Positions 1,482 through 59,804 of a stretch of DNA of 64,000 nucleotides are shown piece by piece. Position 1 is the first letter of the stretch. Every line of letters begins with the position of its first letter. The notes under the pieces are model-generated. The model made no database searches, was not told the origin of the DNA, and worked only from the letters and a program-made list of their open reading frames with translations. Origin of the DNA: Promethearchaeati archaeon SRVP18_Atabeyarchaeia-1 (GTDB taxonomy: Archaea > Asgardarchaeota > Atabeyarchaeia > Atabeyarchaeales > Atabeyarchaeaceae); NCBI GenBank assembly GCA_037308085.1, contig CP147779.1, positions 448,001-512,000 on the forward strand, read 5' to 3'. The position numbers were made by a program, and so were the translations under genes.

Positions 1482-2392
1482 AGGCCTTCAGGTCGTCCTA
1501 AAACTCTTCGCGGCTTCCTCTAACCTCTCTACGATGTGACTCATAGTCGTCTCTGTAGGAAGGCTGTTGACAAGTGTTGGCGAGGGAGTTCAAATGAACT
1601 CGCTTGTGCCTTTCTTAGGAGGGGATCATGACGATCGTTGACGACAAGAGGAAGTATGTTCTGGTCAAAACGAAGAGTCTTATCCGTCGTCTGCGCCAAC
1701 AAGACTGTGGGGCTCTGCAAGGAGTATACAGGCACGTTGATGACTTGGTTGAGTGGAATACCTTTCGAGACTGGGCGTATAGAGGCTGCTTCCGGATGCC
1801 TCTCAACGTGTTCGCAAGGTTGAAGAAGACATATGAGATCAAGGACGTGCCGCGAGTGGTCACAGAGACTCAATGGTACGCAGAGACACGCAAGAGAGCA
1901 GCAAGAATAATGCACGAACGCCACCCCCATAAGGAGTGGCTATCGCGAGCAGCGAAGGCTGGCGGTGAAGCTGTAAAAGCCAAGTACGGGATCAGGTATC
2001 TGACAAAACTCTCTGGATCTGCCATACATTCATCAGCCAGATACCGATACAAGGATGGATATGGAATAGAATACCGTAGCCGCCTGGAACTGCGGGTTGC
2101 GGATTTGCTGCGCAAACATGGATACAAATTCGATTATGAACCGGAGATAGATGGATACATCCCTGACTTCCTAATCAACCACACAATAATCGAGGTTAGC
2201 GGATACTTTCGCGACCACGATTATCTTTCAAGACTCCAGATCAAACTTGCAGACCTAACCACTAAGGGTTGGGATATCATCGTTGTATGTGAACCGCGAA
2301 ACAAAGCTGCTCTCCAGCAGGCGCTCGTAGGAATACGAGTCAAGGCAATTATGACAACGGATGAGTTCGGACGATGGCTGTAGGTCTGCGAA
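1482..2392 (+). mobile_element. 16S BHB intron 1 (911 nt, about E. coli 1057) carrying an endonuclease ORF
   Basis: Central helix TGCA/TGCG, bulges TG^A and AA^G; splicing gives GTGCATG|GCCGTCGTCAG. Confidence 0.93.
1628..2383 (+). CDS. Intron-encoded PD-(D/E)xK endonuclease (T7 endonuclease I/DUF559-like)
   Basis: YRSRLE...YEP...YIPDF...IIEVSG motif; stop codon lies in the intron's BHB stem. Confidence 0.75.
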   Translation: MTIVDDKRKYVLVKTKSLIRRLRQQDCGALQGVYRHVDDLVEWNTFRDWAYRGCFRMPLNVFARLKKTYEIKDVPRVVTETQWYAETRKRAARIMHERHPHKEWLSRAAKAGGEAVKAKYGIRYLTKLSGSAIHSSARYRYKDGYGIEYRSRLELRVADLLRKHGYKFDYEPEIDGYIPDFLINHTIIEVSGYFRDHDYLSRLQIKLADLTTKGWDIIVVCEPRNKAALQQALVGIRVKAIMTTDEFGRWL

Positions 2393-2880: not shown

Positions 2881-3047
2881 AGACTCCGTAGGGGATGCTT
2901 GTGATTGTGATGGGGTGGCATCCGCCTTTTGCTTTGTATGCAACGACTTTGTTGCGGCTTGAGGTGTTCTCGTAGGTTCCGTGTTGCGCGTCTGATGTGT
3001 TTGGGATGCGTTTCCGAGGTTTCGTTTGTCTCCTTGGAGTCCGGTAA
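2881..3047 (+). other. 16S BHB intron 3 (167 nt, helix 45, about E. coli 1513)
   Basis: Helix GCCG/CGGT, stem GACTCC/GGAGTC, bulges TA^A and AA^G; splicing gives GCCGTA|GGGGAACC. Confidence 0.92.
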
Positions 3048-3292
3048 GGGGAACCTGCGGCTGGATCACCTCCTATGAATCCCCACCCGTTAGGGTGGGG
3101 TTCTTCCGCCGCGATTGTTGCCGAGGGGTTGGCTTACATGATTGTTGTGGGGTTTCGAGCCCGCCTACCTGCTTCTCACTGCTCATTTTGTTTTCCTGGT
3201 TATCCGATTAGCCATGTTATTGTCTAGCATTTGCTTTCTCTTTTCTGGATGGCTTCGGATTCGGAAAGCTGGGCGTGTTACTGTAGTTGGTG

Positions 3293-4024
3293 ACCTTTAA
3301 TGTCATCATCCATGACTAGATGATTGTGAGCTACGAACTCCTTGAAGGGTGTGGGCTTTCTGGTTCAATTTGATAAGATTCTGTTGAGGACCGATCAGTC
3401 GGCGGAGGCAACTCCATCCATCTGCTATCTTGCAGGTACGTTCAGAGATGGTTGCATATCAACCCAGTGGCAGATCAAGATCAAGCAGAAATCGAGGCAG
3501 TATCTTCTCAATAAGATCATACCAATACTAAACCAAGAATCCAATCTCCATTTGACAGAGAGAGCCGTCTATTTGCAGGCTGACGCAAATAGGCGCTTTT
3601 ATGTCGCGTTCAAGAGAAAGAAGGCATGGGGGCAGCTCAGGAAAACTTTCAGCATCCCCCCAGACAGTGTAAGTTAGGGAACGCCGCCGTTCGTCAAAAA
3701 ACTAGACAAAGCCCTGTTGCGTTTCTATATACAGGGCTTCTTTGACGCTGAAGGTGGAGTGCCCCGTAACCCGATGAGCTCCAAATTGTACATCTCATTC
3801 ACCCAAAGAAACCGTGAATCCCTAGAGTTTCTAAGAAACAAGCTGTATTCCGAGTGGAATATTGTCTCGGGCAGGCTGAGGATTTCTGATAACAGGTCCC
3901 ACTGCTGGAGGTTCACGATTGCTGGGCTAGGCTCGATCAAACGATTCATGACAGAGATTGGAACGGAACATCCATCTAAGGAGAGAAGATTCACTATCAT
4001 TTCGAATCTGCTTAAAGGCTGGTA
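3293..4024 (+). mobile_element. LAGLIDADG-bearing BHB-type intron in a duplicated 16S helix 45 copy
   Basis: CCTTTAA(3294-3300)/TTAAAGG(4012-4018) stem, TTGG/CTGG central helix, bulges TG^A and TA^G; followed by a copy of the 16S last exon. Confidence 0.6.
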
Positions 4025-4025
4025 G
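3342..4025 (+). pseudogene. Double-motif LAGLIDADG homing endonuclease with one in-frame TAG (3675-3677)
   Basis: Motifs YLAGTFRDG and YIQGFFDAEG are in the same frame; the two ORF-track pieces are separated by a single TAG. Confidence 0.8.
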
Positions 4026-4142
4026 GGGAACCTGCGACTGGATCACCTCCTACGAAGTCCCGCCCAAATGGGCGGGCTTCCTTTCTGCCGCATGTGTTGT
4101 TTGGGATCAGCTTACATGATAGCCAACGGGTTTTGGAGCCTA
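4025..4142 (+). repeat. Diverged duplicate of the 16S 3' exon and trailer (copy of about 3048-3162)
   Basis: GGGGAACCTGCGACTGGATCACCTCCT, GC hairpin, CTTACATGAT processing site, GGGTTT..GAGCC. Confidence 0.9.
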
Positions 4143-4300
4143 CCGAATCTCGTCTTCTCTGATATTTCGTATTGTGTCCTCTGCTATTCCTGTAGGCGGA
4201 TTGTTGCACTCCGATGTGGCTTGGACAAGATCGAGCTAAGCTGGAAAGCAGCCAGTGAAGATGGTCTGGACTCTGCCGTATTTGCCGCGCGCGAGATCCT

Positions 4301-4969
4301 CTATTCGAAGTACACGAGAGCGAAAGCTGTTGCCATGACTGCCATTCCTACGATTAGCTGTCTGAGAGTGATGCGGGAGGCCAGTGCAACGAAGAGAACG
4401 CCAAAACCTATCATGCTGACGACTACTACAAAGTAAAACGGCCTGAGAATGTCGGGTTTTCCAATTCCATAACCAAATAGCGTCCCAGTTATGGAGTGTA
4501 TAATCAACCATAGCACACCGAGGAATATGAGGATCAGTCCGAGTCCCGCGGCGATCCCCCTTGCGCTCCCTCTTCGGCCCCATCCCCACTCGTTCCGCTT
4601 TCTTTCGTCGGGCTCAAGAAAATCTAGTCTCAACCGCGCATTCCCACCTCTGATCACTGTCAACACGAAATCATCCCTAATGATGATCTTGATGGGCGCC
4701 ATATATATGTAGAGCGGCATCTGGTCGGGTGGATCATCATAGTCCCTAGATAATTGAGAGAGAGAGAGAGAGCCATCAAGAAGGTCATTATGTTGTATGG
4801 AATGTGTCCGGGAAGAATCAGGGACAAACCTGCGGTGAAGGAACTCATAGAGCGAATTATGGTGGAGGCGGGCGATACAATAGACTGGCTCGATGAGCTC
4901 TGGGGAAAAAAGGCACCTAGATAGGCGCTGGTAGCGCTGGACATCCATGAATGCGTCCATGTCCGTCAC
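4301..4969 (-). CDS. Hypothetical membrane protein; true start probably downstream of the ORF-track start
   Basis: Three hydrophobic segments in the C-terminal ~95 aa. Confidence 0.45.
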   Translation of the reverse strand: MTDMDAFMDVQRYQRLSRCLFSPELIEPVYCIARLHHNSLYEFLHRRFVPDSSRTHSIQHNDLLDGSLSLSQLSRDYDDPPDQMPLYIYMAPIKIIIRDDFVLTVIRGGNARLRLDFLEPDERKRNEWGWGRRGSARGIAAGLGLILIFLGVLWLIIHSITGTLFGYGIGKPDILRPFYFVVVVSMIGFGVLFVALASRITLRQLIVGMAVMATAFALVYFE

Positions 4970-5400
4970 CCTTATTACAGCTTCAACTCATACCTGTACT
5001 AGGGGTGAGAGTGAGACACGGCGAAATGCCCGAGATGTGGAGAATGGATGAGAACTGAGACTCGAACTGAACCGCTTCTCGGATTGAGTAAGAAGCGTCC
5101 AGCGTTCCCTAGGACAAAAAGACGTGACGTGTGTCCGCATTGCCACTACAGCACCATGTGGATCTAGTCGTAATAGGTTGCGCCTCTCCGCGAGAATGCC
5201 CTAGGAGGGTGCGCCCTGTTTCCTGTTGTTGTCCTGGTCGTTTTTCGTTGGGGTGGCTTGCTTTCTGTTTGGGGCCTTTTCCTGTGTGTGGGGGTTGGTT
5301 CTTTTCGGTGGGGGCTTCTAGCCGAACATTATTTAAGCTTGTGGAAGCGAATGCTTTGTTTGGAATACTTGTCTTGGCGCAGATGGGAGGGTGTTTAGCT

Positions 5401-6036
5401 TTGGCTGCTGGTGGTCTGCATGAGGCTTTAAATAGGTGCCCCAGGTGTGGTGCTGGGATGGAGTATCTTGGGAGGTCGGTGGCGTATTTGGAGTCTGGAG
5501 GCATCTCCGCCTTGTTCGAGGTTTATGTGTGCAGCAGCTGTCTTACGGTGCAGTTGGTTTCTTTCGGTAACGAGAGGGCCTATCGAGATCTTGTCAGGAA
5601 AAATGTTGGGCCATCATCGTTTCTCAAGCCGTGCGTCAGCTGTGGGAGCAGGATTCCCATAGCGTCGGAGGAGTGCCAGTTCTGCGGATCAAAGCAGCCG
5701 CCTTGGGATGAGGCTAAGAGGGGGAGGACGCAGGCTGAGCAAGCCTTGATGCAGAAGCTGGCTGAAATTATGAGAAGGAAGGCTGACGCGCGACTGCAGG
5801 GTGCGGCGCTCTCTAGTGGAGGAGGTGAGTCTGCGCCCGAGTTGGAGGCGGCGCCTCAGATTGAGGTGAAAGAGAAGCCAGGAGAATGCATGGTCTGCCA
5901 TAGCCCAGTGCTGAAGAAGGATGATGTGATTACTTGCCCTCACTGTGGAGGCGTTGCCCACAGGGTTCATATGCTTGAGTGGCTGCATGTCAAAGGCACC
6001 TGCCCCGCGTGCCATCAGCCGATAGCCCATCCTTAG
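5401..6036 (+). CDS. Zinc-ribbon plus C-terminal RING-like finger protein
   Basis: Four CxxC pairs, then CMVC...CPHC...HRVH..EWL...TCPAC; GGAGGGTG SD before TTG 5401. Confidence 0.75.
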   Translation: MAAGGLHEALNRCPRCGAGMEYLGRSVAYLESGGISALFEVYVCSSCLTVQLVSFGNERAYRDLVRKNVGPSSFLKPCVSCGSRIPIASEECQFCGSKQPPWDEAKRGRTQAEQALMQKLAEIMRRKADARLQGAALSSGGGESAPELEAAPQIEVKEKPGECMVCHSPVLKKDDVITCPHCGGVAHRVHMLEWLHVKGTCPACHQPIAHP

Positions 6037-6183
6037 CTTGGGCTGCTCCACCCACAGTTGGCGGCGATGGCTGCCCTACCCATTAGTCCTTTGCCCTCTA
6101 TCTGCCAGCGACTTATAGAAACCTATAATTCTATCTGAAGTGACAACTTACCAGCAGAGAGTTCGCTGGAGAATGAATGTTAG

Positions 6184-6420
6184 ATGCCGAAGCCTAAGGT
6201 GTCAATAAAGTTTTGTGGTGTCTGAGGTTCGAGCGCTGTGACAAGGAAGCTTGTGTCGTCTGTGGTACCGGGTCTTAAGAGCAAGGCGGACGTGGAATTG
6301 GTCAGGAAGGATGGTGCGCATCCTGAGATTCTCGTTAACGGCAAGAAGCTGAAGGCTGACTACGGCGACTTTGAGTCTTTGAAGAAGTCTGTGATAGATG
6401 CTGTGGACAAGGCGAAGTAG
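6184..6420 (+). CDS. SelW/Rdx-like selenoprotein (CxxU)
   Basis: MPKPKVSIKFCGVU(TGA 6223-6225)GSSAV continues in frame into ORF 6238-6420; SECIS-like hairpin follows. Confidence 0.85.
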
Positions 6421-6434
6421 CTCGAACGCTGCGA

Positions 6435-6482
6435 CCCTGATGATTCCCGCTCGTAAAAGCTGCGAGGGGGCGGGATGAAGGG
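6435..6482 (+). promoter_or_regulatory. Eukaryote-type SECIS element in the 3' UTR
   Basis: CCCT/AGGG helix I, ATGA...TGA core, TCCCGCTC/GGGCGGGA helix II, apical AAAA. Confidence 0.75.
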
Positions 6483-7358
6483 AGGGACGCCCCCGCGAGG
6501 TTTCTCGCGGTCGTCATCAACCTAGTTTCATGTTGAGTAGGCACTTCTGTGTTTGGAGGCGCCGTGGCGCCGGTGTATTGTCTCTTTCTCTTGCTGACCG
6601 CAATACTTATAATGGGTTCACCGCACTATCTTTGAATTGCGGTAGAGAGATGGCTTTGCAGCTGTTACTCTATCGCCCTCATGATGAACTTGAGATGCAA
6701 CTCGGGAGGATTGTACAATTGGGCCTCTCGGGTGAAGGGCAAAGTGGGGATTCACATGGTTACCATCCTCACGATAATTGCCGTGCATAGGCTCCATCTG
6801 CTAGATCGTTCGTACGAGGAGAACCCAGGTATATCCAACACCAAACTGGACCAAGGTTATGAGTAAGGTCTGACATGCCTACGCCGCCTGGAGGATGGCT
6901 AGGCTTGGGCGCCGAGGAAGGCCGTGGCAAGCTGCGATAAGCCTCGGGTAGGCGCACGCTGCCTGCGATCCGAGGATTGCCGAATAGGACTTCCTGACTA
7001 AGGTCAATAACCTTAGTCGCTCCCGTCAGGGAGTGGGAACTCTCCGAAGGGAAGCATCTCAGTAGGAGAAGGAAAAGAAACTAACAAGGACTCCCTTATT
7101 AGCGGCGAGCGAAAGGGGAAAAGGGCAAACCGAATCCTGCAGGGAAACCTGCTGGAGATGTGGGGTTACAGGACCTAGCTTCCACCTCTTCGAGGAAGTT
7201 GAAAGACATGGAAATGTCTGCCTTAGAGGGTGATAGCCCCGTAAGCGCAACTCGAAAAGTGCAGGGCTGGGGATCCTGAGTACCGTGGACTGCTTACTCC
7301 GCGGGAATTTGGGAGCTACCGACTTCCAACCCTAAGTACGTCCCAAGTCCGATAGCGC

Positions 7359-7392
<34 letters not shown>

Positions 7393-8803
7393 GGAAGGGG
7401 GGTGAAAAGGGCCTGAAACCAGGCGGTTATAGACGAGCGCGGCCTGAAAGGGTAGAGTCTTCCCGAAGGAACCCGGGGTGACCCGGTAGTACGAGGGAAG
7501 AGGACCAGGGTTGCGCTATCCGTCTTGAAACACGGGCCGGGGAGTTCACGCTTGTGGCGAGCCTAAGGAGGTAAAGCTCCGTAAGCGAAGGGAAACCGAC
7601 ATGCCCGCAACCGGCTTAACTGTCGGCGAGGGGCGGGGTCTGAAAGGGCCTGGAGTCACATGCGTGGAACCCGAAGCTGGGCGATCTAGCCCTGGCTAGG
7701 ATGAAGCCAGACGAAAGTCTGGTGGAGGTCCGCAAGGGTGCTGACGTGCAACTCGCTCCCCTGAGCTGGGGCTAGGGGCAAAATACTAATCTAGCCCAGG
7801 GATAGCTGGTTCCCCCCGAAGTAGGTCGTAGCCTAGCCTGGCTGGAGGTTGCCGACGGGGTAGAGCACCGACTGGGGAGCAAGGGATCGAAAGATCCCAC
7901 TTTCCTATCGAACTCCGAACCTATCGGCGCCGTAGAAGGCCAGAGACGGGTGCCTAGGGATAAGCTCTTGGACCGAGAGGAGAACAATCCAGACCGGGGT
8001 TAAGGCCCCAAAGTGCCGGCTAAGTGTCAAACCGAAGGGCGTCCGCAGCCTCAGACAGCAGGAGAGTAGGCTTAGAAGCAGCCATCTCTCAAAAAGTGCG
8101 TAACAGCTTACCTGCCGAGGTTGTGGGCCCCGAAAATGGACGGGACTAAAGCCGGCCGCCGATACCCCGGGGCACGGTGTAGCACCGTGATCCGGTAGGG
8201 GGGCGTTGCGGTTGGGTCGAAGCTGAGCCGTGAGGTTCAGTGGACCGACTGGAAGTGACGATCCCGGCAGTAGTAACAACAAAGCCAGGTGAGACTCCTG
8301 GCCGCCGAAGGGGCTCGGGTTCCTCGGCAACGCGTCGTCAGCCGAGGGTTAGTCGATCCTAAGGCTAAGCTTAACTCGCTTTAGCCGAAAGGGAAACTGG
8401 TTTATATTCCAGTACCATGGAGGTACGATTGCGGCGACGCTAAGCTTGGTTCCTGACGCTTCCGGGTAGGTTGAGCAGGGTCTTCGCCCTGTTTAAGTGT
8501 ATAAGCCTAGGGAGGGCCGTAAAGGCGAGAACTAGGTGAAAGCACGAATAGCTGCCCGTTTAGGGCGGTTCAGCCGAGCTCAGGAGCCCGTGAAAAGGGA
8601 GCCAAGAAGGATCCTCCATGACCGTACCTAGAACCGACACAGGTGCCCCTAGGTGAGAAGCCTCAGGCGTGTCGGAATAAACTCGGGCAAGGGAATTCGG
8701 CAAATTAGCCCCGTAACTTAGGGATAAGGGGTGCCTGGAACCTTTAGCGTAAAAACTTGGGGTTCTAGGTCGCAGTGACTAGGGAGGCCTGACTGTTTAA
8801 TAA

Positions 8804-8836
8804 ACGGACGAAGGCACATGCCCTTCTCCGATTAAG
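8804..8836 (+). other. 23S BHB intron (33 nt, about E. coli 1784)
   Basis: Helix TAAT/ATTA, bulges AA^A and AG^A; splicing gives TTTAATAA|AAACATAG. Confidence 0.9.
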
Positions 8837-8964
8837 AAACATAGCTTCCCGCAAGCGCGTAAGCGTGTGTACGGGAGGTGAATCCTGGCCAGTGCAGGTA
8901 CGTTAAGCCTGGTTTCAACCGGGTGAAGCGCCTGTAAACGCCGGGAGTAACTATAACTCTCTTA

Positions 8965-9013
8965 ACAGGCTTTGGGGAGACAGTTCATGTGCTCTCCCCC
9001 CGGCCTGGGGGAA
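8965..9013 (+). other. 23S BHB intron (49 nt, about E. coli 1927)
   Basis: Helix CTCT/GGGG, stem CAGGC/GCCTG; splicing gives CTCTTA|AGGTAGC. Confidence 0.9.
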
Positions 9014-9579
9014 AGGTAGCCAAATGCCTTGTCGGACAAGTACCGACGTGCATGAATGGACCAACGAGGTCTCTACTGTCCCTGCCCGGGGGCCGGTGAA
9101 CCTACGTAACCTGGCGAACGGTCCAGGAACCCCCAAGGGGAAAAGAAGACCCCGTGGAGCTTTACTGCAGCTTGGTGCTGGGGTGCGGTTGCGGTTGCAG
9201 AGCGTAGTCGGGAGCCGTTAATACCAGTCCTTTAGGGGGCTGGCTAGGCGCCAATGCCACACCGACCTTCCATGACTGTATCCCTAACCGAGGGAAACCC
9301 CGAGACAACGCTAGGTGGGCAGTTCGGCTGGGGCGGCACGCCCTTGAAAAGGTATCAAGGGTGCCCAAAGGTCGGCTCAACCGAGACAGAAACTCGGCGT
9401 AGAGGGTAAGGCCAAAAGCCGGCCTGACTGAATCCTGAAAAGCAAAGGATGCAGAGGCGAAAGCCGGGCCTAACGATCCTTCATGTCCCTCTCGGTGAGG
9501 GCTGGAGGTGACAGAAAAGTTACCCCGGGGATAACAGAGTCGTCGCGGGCAAGAGCCCATATCGACCCCGCGGCTTGCT

Positions 9580-9611
9580 AGTTAGGAAGATTCGTTCTTC
9601 CTGACCGGGAG
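9580..9611 (+). other. 23S BHB intron (32 nt, about E. coli 2496)
   Basis: Helix CTTG/CGGG, stem GTTAGG/CCTGAC; splicing gives GCTTGCT|TCCTCGATGTCGG. Confidence 0.88.
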
Positions 9612-9670
9612 TCCTCGATGTCGGCTCTTCCCATCCTGGAGGTGCAGCAGCCTCCAAGGGTAGGGCTGTA

Positions 9671-9820
<150 letters not shown>

Positions 9821-9884
9821 ACAGGTCGGGTTTTATCTCTTGGGGGTGCAGGGTCGCCTGAAGGTAAGGTACCCTCAGTACGAG

Positions 9885-9918
9885 AGGGCTGGAGTGCTTT
9901 GTGCACCTGCTCCGTAAG
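9885..9918 (+). other. 23S BHB intron in the sarcin-ricin loop (34 nt)
   Basis: Helix TACG/CGTA, both bulges AG^A; splicing gives AGTACGAG|AGGAAC. Confidence 0.92.
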
Positions 9919-10641
9919 AGGAACGGGGTGCCGTGGCCTCTGGTGTACCGGTTGTCCGAGCGGGCAACGCCGGGCAGCTAAGCCGCAAGTGATAAGGGCT
10001 GAAAGCATCTAAGCCCGAAACACTACCTGAAAAGAGGCGACCAATCCGCAGTTCCTGGCTTTTCAAGCCACACTGGGACCCGTGAGGGTCACGGTTACTG
10101 TGGACGAGGGCTCCGGAAGAAGACCGGGTTGATAGGGCAGCGGTGTACGCCTCAAGCTTCGGCGAGAGGTTCAGCCGGCTGCTACTAATCGCTCGAGCGT
10201 GCAGGCCTGAAATTCCTTGGTTCGGGTGAAATTGGGTTTCTGGGGACGTTCTGGGGGTGGAGCCTAGTGCACGGCTGTTGCCGCTTCCGTTTTCTGCAGT
10301 TGCCTCTCTTGAGTACGTGTGACCATATTTCTCAACAGAGATTCCTGTCTGAGAGGAACCAGATTTACTCGAACAGTTTTCCTTGGCGCTCGAGAGTTTG
10401 GATTTACCGCACTGTGTCAGAGAGGGGGGAGAGAGTGTGTAACGGGGAAGCGCGTTCATCCACACTGATGTCAGGGTGGCTGGATGCATGAGAAGTACGG
10501 CGGTAACCACAACCCATCTTGATGGTGCTCTGCTTGAACTCTCCATCCTTGGCGCCAAATGAGAATATTCGAAAAGTATATCTGGTTGGTGCTCCAATAC
10601 CGCTTCTTGATTTGATGATATGGTGATGGAGGGAATGGTCT

Positions 10642-59699: not shown

Positions 59700-59804
59700 G
59701 GGCCCGTGGCCTAGTCAGGATAGGGCGCCAGCCTCCTAACTCATTTCTCCCCGCAAACCGGAGAGAGCTGGTGGTCGAGGGTTCAATTCCCTCCGGGCCC
59801 GCCA
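59700..59804 (+). tRNA. tRNA-Arg(CCT) with canonical 37/38 intron
   Basis: GGGCCCG acceptor, CCAGC-CTCCTA|A-GCTGG, CCA encoded. Confidence 0.92.

What the first reader, a model, noticed from the sequence alone, without database searches (positions are those of the whole stretch)
9879..9921. Intron exactly at the alpha-sarcin cleavage bond of the sarcin-ricin loop
Seen: the BHB cut falls at AGUACGAG|AGGAAC. Known: this is the G2661/A2662 bond cut by alpha-sarcin, which leaves the same 2',3'-cyclic phosphate and 5'-OH ends as EndA. Inference (speculative): introns may be gained by ligation of RNA into nuclease-generated breaks, or this splice acts as a late checkpoint for GTPase-factor binding.
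Basis: partly seen in the sequence, partly recalled or inferred. Interest (0 to 1): 0.7.

Follow-up and report, generated by a model that had tools for sequence, protein, structure and literature searches.

The report
Mini-intron splitting the sarcin-ricin loop
The only 23S rRNA gene of this soil Asgard archaeon (Atabeyarchaeia-1) carries a 34-base tRNA-type intron in the ribosome's sarcin-ricin loop, predicted to be cut at the bond that alpha-sarcin cuts. The site is an ordinary intron homing site that other archaea also use, and nothing links it to toxins.

Summary
Confirmed: window 9885-9918 is a 34-nt insert in the sarcin-ricin loop (SRL, helix 95) of the genome's only 23S rRNA gene. It folds as a bulge-helix-bulge (BHB) splicing motif. 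Sequence alone allows six splice registers. Only one gives a perfect 4-bp central helix, and it puts the cut at G2661|A2662 (E. coli numbering), the alpha-sarcin bond. The same cutting rule reproduces the boundaries of six other rRNA introns in this window that Atabeyarchaeia-2 lacks. The genome encodes two EndA paralogues and one RtcB.

The toxin link is not supported. Aenigmatarchaeota carry 628-640-nt introns at the same bond that encode LAGLIDADG homing endonucleases, plus ORF-less derivatives of them. Two other lineages have SRL introns at 2658|2659 and 2660|2661. Only one of this genome's seven rRNA introns lies at a known toxin site.

The best reading is an ordinary, obligatorily spliced archaeal mini-intron at a previously unreported site, in an intron-saturated lineage.

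This scan had already noted the same intron in Atabeyarchaeia-2 and an SRL intron in a Heimdall-group genome.

The parts
6867..10208 (+). 23S rRNA gene, the only copy in the 2.81-Mb genome
   Evidence: Rfam RF02540, 2703 bits. One match in the whole genome.
9868..9875 (+). 5' strand of the helix 95 stem, pairing with 9925-9932
   Evidence: Rfam consensus structure. All 8 pairs hold in 4 variants.
9877..9884 (+). Exon-1 half of the SRL, AGUACGAG (E. coli A2654-G2661)
   Evidence: Alignment to E. coli 23S.
9879..9882 (+). Exon strand (UACG) of the 4-bp central BHB helix, pairing with 9913-9916
   Evidence: MFE fold. Register score 4/4.
9883..9885 (+). 5' three-base bulge A-G|A; the predicted cut is after G9884
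   Evidence: The BHB cutting rule was calibrated on six other introns.
9885..9918 (+). 34-nt ORF-less BHB intron
   Evidence: Absent from all 16 other Asgard SRL loci that were read out and from other Asgard genomes.
9886..9912 (+). Intron hairpin (inner helix h'), 10 pairs with two 1-nt bulges and a 5-nt loop
   Evidence: 100% of cells paired in 4 variants, and all variable columns are unpaired or G-U/A-U.
9913..9916 (+). Intron strand (CGUA) of the central helix
   Evidence: The same CGUA occurs in the unrelated Aenigmatarchaeota introns.
9917..9920 (+). 3' splice-site loop A-G|A-G, opposite AG 9877-9878 (relaxed rather than a clean 3-nt bulge); the predicted cut is after G9918
   Evidence: outer-helix score is poor.
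9919..9924 (+). Exon-2 half of the SRL, AGGAAC (A2662 onward)
9925..9932 (+). 3' strand of the helix 95 stem

Best explanation
Window 9885-9918 is a 34-nt, protein-free archaeal bulge-helix-bulge intron in the GAGA tetraloop of the sarcin-ricin loop of the only 23S rRNA gene of Ca. Atabeyarchaeum deiterrae (Atabeyarchaeia-1).

In the precursor, the 3' end of the intron (CGUA) pairs with U2656-G2659. This unfolds the SRL and presents A2660-G2661|A in a 3-nt bulge.

A two-subunit splicing endonuclease, inferred to be the alpha2-beta2 type that accepts relaxed motifs, cuts after G2661 and after the last intron base. RtcB then joins G2661 to A2662 and restores AGUACGAGAGGAAC.

Splicing is obligatory, because there is no second gene and an interrupted or nicked SRL cannot activate translational GTPases.

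The site is occupied because archaeal rRNA introns and their homing endonucleases settle in the most conserved rRNA sequences, and because this lineage is saturated with BHB introns. The match with the alpha-sarcin bond is a coincidence within a shared target, not a sign of toxin-mediated origin.

Shown here: the insert, the fold, the register, the enzymes, the relatives. Inferred: the actual cleavage and ligation, the endonuclease type, and the origin.
For: There is a 34-nt insert in the SRL relative to the Rfam model, relative to E. coli, and relative to every other Asgard SRL locus I read.

Only one register gives a 4/4 central helix with an inner helix of at least 4 bp. The null rate for that test is 0.042% per position.

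The same cutting rule fits six other rRNA introns that Atabeyarchaeia-2 lacks. For the other four it picks one register among those allowed.

The intron is kept in Atabeyarchaeia-2, in isolate LC30 and in three metagenome contigs. Every substitution falls in an unpaired position or preserves the pair.

The genome has a single 23S gene. It has two EndA paralogues that are 32% identical, and the second appears to lack the catalytic His in the pairwise alignment. It has one RtcB.

At the same bond, Aenigmatarchaeota carry 640- and 628-nt introns encoding 179- and 193-aa LAGLIDADG proteins (PF14528, E about 1e-15; best PDB match I-DmoI). They also carry mini-introns that share end sequences with the long ones.

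The published genome paper reports introns in 92-95% of tRNA genes (PMC11291895).
Against: The 3' splice site lies in an internal loop, not a canonical 3-nt bulge, and the outer helix is poor.

There is no compensatory covariation, since only 4 near-identical variants are available.

No endonuclease-bearing version of the intron was found in 400 Asgard genomes, so a homing origin for the Atabeyarchaeia copy is unproven.
Confidence: 0.85

Rival explanations
1. Origin variant A: the Atabeyarchaeia SRL intron is the decayed, ORF-less remnant of a LAGLIDADG homing intron that once invaded the SRL at the DNA level. This is the gain-decay cycle known for rRNA introns.
For: The same bond carries LAGLIDADG introns and their ORF-less derivatives in Aenigmatarchaeota. 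In Thermoproteales 16S and CPR 23S, the same loci hold both endonuclease-bearing and short hairpin introns (PMC4496867; PMC11270868).
Against: Apart from the CGUAA(G/A) forced by pairing to the exon, I saw no obvious sequence similarity between the Atabeyarchaeia and Aenigmatarchaeota introns when comparing them by eye; no alignment was run. No endonuclease-bearing SRL intron was found in 400 Asgard genomes.
Confidence: 0.35
2. Origin variant B: the intron was gained by the same lineage-specific process that has filled Atabeyarchaeia tRNA, rRNA, SRP RNA and some mRNAs with short BHB introns, without any homing endonuclease.
For: Six more rRNA introns in this window are absent from Atabeyarchaeia-2, which points to recent gains; five of them are 32-49 nt. 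92-95% of tRNA genes carry introns, and repeated gains have been reported (bioRxiv 10.64898/2026.10.13.758758).
Against: None of the rRNA mini-introns has a paralogous copy elsewhere in the genome; only 13-15-nt chance matches were found. The SRL intron is the old, shared one, not one of the recent gains.
Confidence: 0.4
3. One reading: the intron was acquired when an RNA fragment was ligated by RtcB into a 2',3'-cyclic-phosphate/5'-OH break made at G2661|A2662 by an alpha-sarcin-like ribotoxin, and was then copied back into DNA.
For: The predicted cut is at the alpha-sarcin bond. The end chemistry of EndA and of cyclizing RNases matches what RtcB joins (my own knowledge). Bacterial SRL-cleaving toxins with homologues in archaeal genomes exist (bioRxiv 10.64898/2026.09.18.752725).
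Against: This route needs an unobserved reverse-transcription and recombination step. The inserted RNA would also have to arrive already carrying CGUA and a hairpin in BHB register. LAGLIDADG homing explains the same bond in Aenigmatarchaeota. Other SRL introns sit at 2658|2659 and 2660|2661. SRLase1 cuts A2662|G2663, a different bond. Six of this genome's seven rRNA introns are not at known toxin bonds.
Confidence: 0.03
4. The splice serves as a selected late checkpoint: the pre-50S subunit cannot engage translational or assembly GTPases until EndA and RtcB have rebuilt the SRL.
For: The BHB sequesters U2656-G2659, so the SRL cannot form before splicing. In E. coli, 50S particles lacking the SRL stall late in assembly (PMC11912913). 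This is the only rRNA intron shared by all the Atabeyarchaeia I examined.
Against: Persistence is expected for any intron in a single-copy essential gene with no intron-less allele to recombine with. The conservation is fully explained by the requirements of splicing. Related Asgard archaea manage without it.
Confidence: 0.1
5. The insert is not spliced. It is either kept in the mature rRNA or cut out without rejoining, which would leave a fragmented 23S rRNA.
For: There are no RNA data for this organism. Excision without rejoining is known elsewhere in archaeal 23S rRNA: helix 98 of Pyrococcus (PMC7758197).
Against: A break at this bond is what alpha-sarcin makes, and it inactivates ribosomes (PMC2896532 abstract). 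A retained insert would destroy the GAGA loop. This is the only 23S gene. The motif is a well-formed EndA substrate, and RtcB is present.
Confidence: 0.03

Closest known systems
Short (<50 nt) hairpin-forming BHB introns of Thermoproteales rRNA genes (Jay & Inskeep 2015, PMC4496867)
   Same: It is ORF-less and 30-50 nt long. It has a BHB core formed with exon bases, sits in a highly conserved rRNA site, and is removed by EndA and RtcB.
   Different: The host is an Asgard archaeon. The site is the SRL of 23S rRNA, for which I found no report in three full-text searches. The 3' site is relaxed.
LAGLIDADG-encoding BHB introns of archaeal 23S rRNA (I-DmoI intron of Desulfurococcus mobilis; here the Aenigmatarchaeota SRL introns L067 and L070)
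   Same: The Aenigmatarchaeota introns use the same bond (2661|2662), the same UACG/CGUA central helix and the same A-R|A bulges.
   Different: The Atabeyarchaeia intron has no ORF and no obvious sequence similarity to them by eye (no alignment was run). The Aenigmatarchaeota exons read GAAA, not GAGA.
Alpha-sarcin-family ribotoxins and the bacterial toxin SRLase1
   Same: They target the same loop. Alpha-sarcin cuts the same bond and leaves the same end chemistry (cyclic phosphate and 5'-OH).
   Different: They are toxins acting on mature ribosomes, with no ligation and no intron. SRLase1 cuts one bond further 3'.
Excision of helix 98 from Pyrococcus furiosus 23S rRNA (PMC7758197)
   Same: It is a late RNA-processing step in domain VI, next to the SRL, and has been proposed as a possible quality-control step.
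   Different: There the ends are not rejoined and the rRNA ends up circularly permuted. Here rejoining is required.

Membership tests
Archaeal bulge-helix-bulge (EndA/RtcB-spliced) intron | An insert that is absent from homologous genes and whose removal restores the conserved sequence | tested here: met
   There is a 34-nt insert against the Rfam model, E. coli and other Asgard 23S genes. Removing it gives AGUACGAGAGGAAC.
Archaeal bulge-helix-bulge (EndA/RtcB-spliced) intron | A 4-bp central helix between the exon-1 bases at -6 to -3 and the intron bases at -6 to -3 from the 3' cut | tested here: met
   UACG 9879-9882 pairs with CGUA 9913-9916, 4/4, in one register only.
Archaeal bulge-helix-bulge (EndA/RtcB-spliced) intron | Two 3-nt bulges flanked by outer helices (the strict hBHBh' form) | tested here: inconclusive
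   The 5' bulge AGA is canonical, with an inner helix of at least 4 bp. The 3' site lies in a 2x4 internal loop and the outer helix is weak, so this is the relaxed form.
Archaeal bulge-helix-bulge (EndA/RtcB-spliced) intron | Splicing endonuclease and RtcB ligase encoded in the genome | tested here: met
   There are two EndA paralogues, 209 and 241 aa, each with PF01974 and PF02778, and one RtcB at 583 bits.
Archaeal bulge-helix-bulge (EndA/RtcB-spliced) intron | Intron absent from the mature RNA, or a circular intron detectable | not testable with these tools
LAGLIDADG homing intron | The intron encodes a LAGLIDADG endonuclease | tested here: not met
   34 nt cannot hold an ORF. The feature is met by the same-site introns in Aenigmatarchaeota L067 and L070, but by none of 400 Asgard genomes.

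The most novel reading that the evidence does not exclude
In lineages with an SRL intron, every ribosome passes through the same nicked intermediate that alpha-sarcin makes: G2661 with a cyclic phosphate, and A2662 with a 5'-OH. RtcB must seal that nick on the pre-50S particle. The splice could therefore work as a real late maturation gate for GTPase engagement. It could also pre-adapt these archaea to repair SRL-cleaving toxins.
Probability: 0.1. Interest if true: 0.75.

Novelty: new member of a known kind. Interest (0 to 1): 0.45.

Why it matters
[quoted passage not shown] An intron there means ribosome function depends absolutely on the tRNA-splicing enzymes. It also means RtcB routinely seals the same nick that alpha-sarcin uses to kill cells.

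The survey shows the SRL is a recurrent intron site in several lineages: Asgard Atabeyarchaeia, DPANN Aenigmatarchaeota and Micrarchaeota, and one unassigned lineage. Three different bonds are used, and at least one lineage has an endonuclease-bearing form.

This adds a new homing site, and with it a natural LAGLIDADG enzyme that presumably recognises SRL-encoding DNA. It also explains the apparent toxin coincidence in ordinary terms.

SRL introns also affect how 23S rRNA genes are annotated in metagenome-assembled genomes.

Tried and rejected
Nothing was laid, and no conclusion can be drawn either way.

2. Paralogous copies of the rRNA mini-introns elsewhere in the genome, as a test of transposition. 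blastn-short found only 13-15-nt chance matches.

3. An endonuclease-bearing or any other same-site intron in Asgard. The 3' splice signature YGTRNN|AGGAAC matched only the three Atabeyarchaeia among 400 genomes, many of which are incomplete and may lack rRNA genes.

4. Longer SRL inserts (43-73 nt) in 115 high-completeness Asgard genomes: none matched. I therefore could not reproduce or place the 61-nt Heimdall SRL intron mentioned in earlier notes. My pattern's anchors may not fit it.

5. Covariation. Four near-identical variants give no compensatory changes, so this is uninformative rather than negative.

6. Literature. Three full-text searches found no report of an intron in the SRL. The library lacks most subscription journals, including Jackson et al. 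2002 on rRNA intron positions.

7. My first hand-drawn BHB for the 106-nt helix 93 intron was wrong. The register scan corrected it to 9715-9820.

Full report
**What is there**

The window starts with an archaeal rRNA operon. The 16S gene is at 464-2889, the 23S gene at 6867-10208, and RNase P RNA at 12808-13204. Both rRNA genes are much longer than their Rfam models.

The genome is a single contig of 2,808,651 bp. That size matches the published complete genome of Ca. Atabeyarchaeum deiterrae, Atabeyarchaeia-1, an Asgard archaeon from wetland soil (PMC11291895). That paper reports introns in 92-95% of tRNA genes, but the term 23S does not occur in it.

In helix 95, the Rfam alignment shows 37 nt where the model has 3. 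The region reads CAGUACGAGAGGGC...CCGUAAGAGGAAC. This is the only 23S gene in the genome.

**The splice register**

The pentamer AGAGG occurs at both ends of the insert, so sequence alone allows six registers.

Archaeal splicing endonuclease cuts after the second base of each 3-nt bulge flanking a 4-bp helix. I take this rule from my own knowledge of the tRNA 37/38 geometry, and I checked it here (see below).

I scored every allowed register. Only the register with the intron at 9885-9918 gives a 4/4 central helix (UACG 9879-9882 with CGUA 9913-9916) and an inner helix of at least 4 bp. All other registers score 2/4 or less.

The unconstrained MFE fold finds the same helix, the AGA bulge at 9883-9885 and the intron hairpin at 9886-9912. 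Across the window, 0.042% of positions at 34-nt spacing pass the same test.

Alignment to E. coli 23S gives G9884 = G2661 and A9919 = A2662. This is the bond that alpha-sarcin cuts (PMC11912913).

One caveat applies. The 3' site is not a clean bulge. It lies in an internal loop (AG 9877-9878 opposite AGAG 9917-9920), and the outer helix is poor. This is a relaxed BHB.

**Calibrating the cutting rule**

Comparison with Atabeyarchaeia-2 shows that the 23S gene of that genome carries only the SRL intron and its 16S gene carries none (L096). That reveals six further inserts in this window.

| Gene | Intron (window) | E. coli bond |
|---|---|---|
| 23S | 8804-8836 | 1784\|1785 |
| 23S | 8965-9013 | 1927\|1928 |
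| 23S | 9580-9611 | 2496\|2497 |
| 23S | 9715-9820 | 2599\|2600 |
| 16S | 1482-2392 | 1057\|1058 |
| 16S | 2742-2774 | 1397\|1398 |

For the two introns whose boundaries are fixed by the intron-less allele (9580-9611 and 1482-2392), the rule's register gives 4/4 with 10 and 5 inner pairs. The rule therefore works in this lineage.

**Conservation**

The SRL intron is present in three places:
- Atabeyarchaeia-2 (CP147780)
- isolate LC30
- three metagenome contigs

Five columns vary among four variants. One is a bulge, two are in the loop, one is a G-U/A-U switch, and one is the last intron base, which is G in most and A in LC30.

The LC30 change argues that this base is intronic. Otherwise LC30 would have A at 2661, unlike all 16 intact Asgard SRLs I read.

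There are no compensatory changes, so covariation is uninformative.

**The splicing machinery**

The genome has two EndA paralogues of 209 and 241 aa. Both carry the N-terminal and catalytic domains, and they are 32% identical. In the pairwise alignment the second lacks the His of the catalytic region.

I read this as a catalytic-plus-structural pair of the alpha2-beta2 kind. From my own knowledge, that kind accepts relaxed motifs. This assignment is an inference.

One RtcB is present.

**Survey of other archaea**

I scanned one genome per species, 185,579 species in all, for 12-42-nt inserts between AGUACG and GGAAC with a 3' anchor. Besides Atabeyarchaeia, the scan found four DPANN genomes with inserts of 29-40 nt: three labelled Aenigmatarchaeota and one labelled uncultured archaeon. 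It also found a Micrarchaeota 23S gene with a 147-nt insert.

A metagenome scan added a fifth Aenigmatarchaeota-type intron and an unassigned lineage with a 43-nt insert.

Register scoring places these introns as follows:
- Aenigmatarchaeota type: 2661|2662, with the same UACG/CGUA helix and A-A|A bulges
- Unassigned lineage: 2660|2661, with 4/4 and 11 inner pairs
- Micrarchaeota: 2658|2659, a strict BHB

I then sampled 101 genomes of the phylum of the DRTY-6 Aenigmatarchaeota genome (G041). Two loci, L067 and L070, carry 640- and 628-nt introns at 2661|2662. These encode 179- and 193-aa proteins with LAGLIDADG_3 domains (E about 1e-15). Their best solved relative is I-DmoI.

The mini-introns share their terminal 13-18 nt with these long introns. 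They are therefore ORF-loss derivatives.

Among 400 Asgard genomes, the same-site 3' signature occurs only in the three Atabeyarchaeia.

**What this means for the interpretation**

The SRL is a recurrent site for archaeal introns, and in at least one phylum it is a LAGLIDADG homing site.

Three different bonds within the loop are used. In this genome, only one of seven rRNA introns coincides with a known toxin bond. The other six sit at the usual conserved functional sites: helix 34, the decoding centre, the 1927 region, the peptidyl-transferase region and helix 93.

The prokaryotic SRL toxin SRLase1 cuts A2662|G2663, not this bond.

A toxin-break origin would also need reverse transcription back into DNA, and an inserted RNA that already carries CGUA and a hairpin in register. 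I rate it at about 3%.

Two ordinary origins remain open:
- a decayed homing intron
- the lineage's own intron proliferation

The second is suggested by six recent rRNA gains and the tRNA data, but no paralogous copies were found.

The checkpoint idea follows trivially from the anatomy, since an unspliced SRL cannot work. It also has a parallel in E. coli, where particles lacking the SRL stall late in assembly. Nothing here shows selection for it.

**Limits**

No RNA evidence was obtained. The junction, the cleavage and the ligation are all inferred. I could not locate the Heimdall SRL intron mentioned in earlier notes of this scan.

**Verdict**

This is a real, conserved, obligatorily spliced BHB mini-intron at G2661|A2662. 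It is a new site for a known kind of element. I found no published report of it, but this scan had already noted it on Atabeyarchaeia-2. The toxin link is coincidental.

Noticed in passing
L061-L089 (Aenigmatarchaeota 23S loci): All 25 uninterrupted SRLs in the Aenigmatarchaeota sample read AGUACGAAAGGAAC. They have a GAAA tetraloop with A at position 2661 in place of the near-universal G. The intron-bearing genes give the same loop after splicing.
   Followed up: partly
window 8804-8836, 8965-9013, 9580-9611, 9715-9820, 2742-2774: Five more ORF-less BHB introns of 32-106 nt lie in the 23S gene (E. coli 1784|5, 1927|8, 2496|7, 2599|600) and the 16S gene (1397|8). All are absent from Atabeyarchaeia-2, and each has a 4/4 central helix in one register.
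   Followed up: yes
window 1482-2392 (ORF 1628-2383 +): A 911-nt BHB intron in 16S helix 34 (1057|1058) carries a 251-aa ORF with no LAGLIDADG hit. There is only a weak Phage_endo_I match (E 0.003). The nearest Atlas cluster is an unnamed DPANN family (score 0.94), with DUF559 and endonuclease-I-like viral clusters further down the list. It may be a PD-(D/E)xK-type homing endonuclease.
   Followed up: partly
window 2890-6866: The 16S-23S spacer is about 4 kb and holds several ORFs, including a 301-aa protein with a RING-finger match at 5131-6036. The spacer is about 940 nt in Atabeyarchaeia-2.
   Followed up: no
L047 (Micrarchaeota contig JBBIMI010000012), minus strand: This 23S gene has a strict-BHB 147-nt intron at 2658|2659 whose 5' end repeats CGAGGAAC from the SRL. 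Upstream, near helix 93, it also has a long insert with an open reading frame. The ORF was not characterised.
   Followed up: partly
L100 (G026, Asgard family f4): A 389-nt insert after about E. coli 2449 in the 23S gene is absent from the other genomes in the alignment. It was not examined further.
   Followed up: no
window 59700-59801: A tRNA gene spans 102 nt against the 71-position model, so it is likely to carry one or more introns.
   Followed up: no
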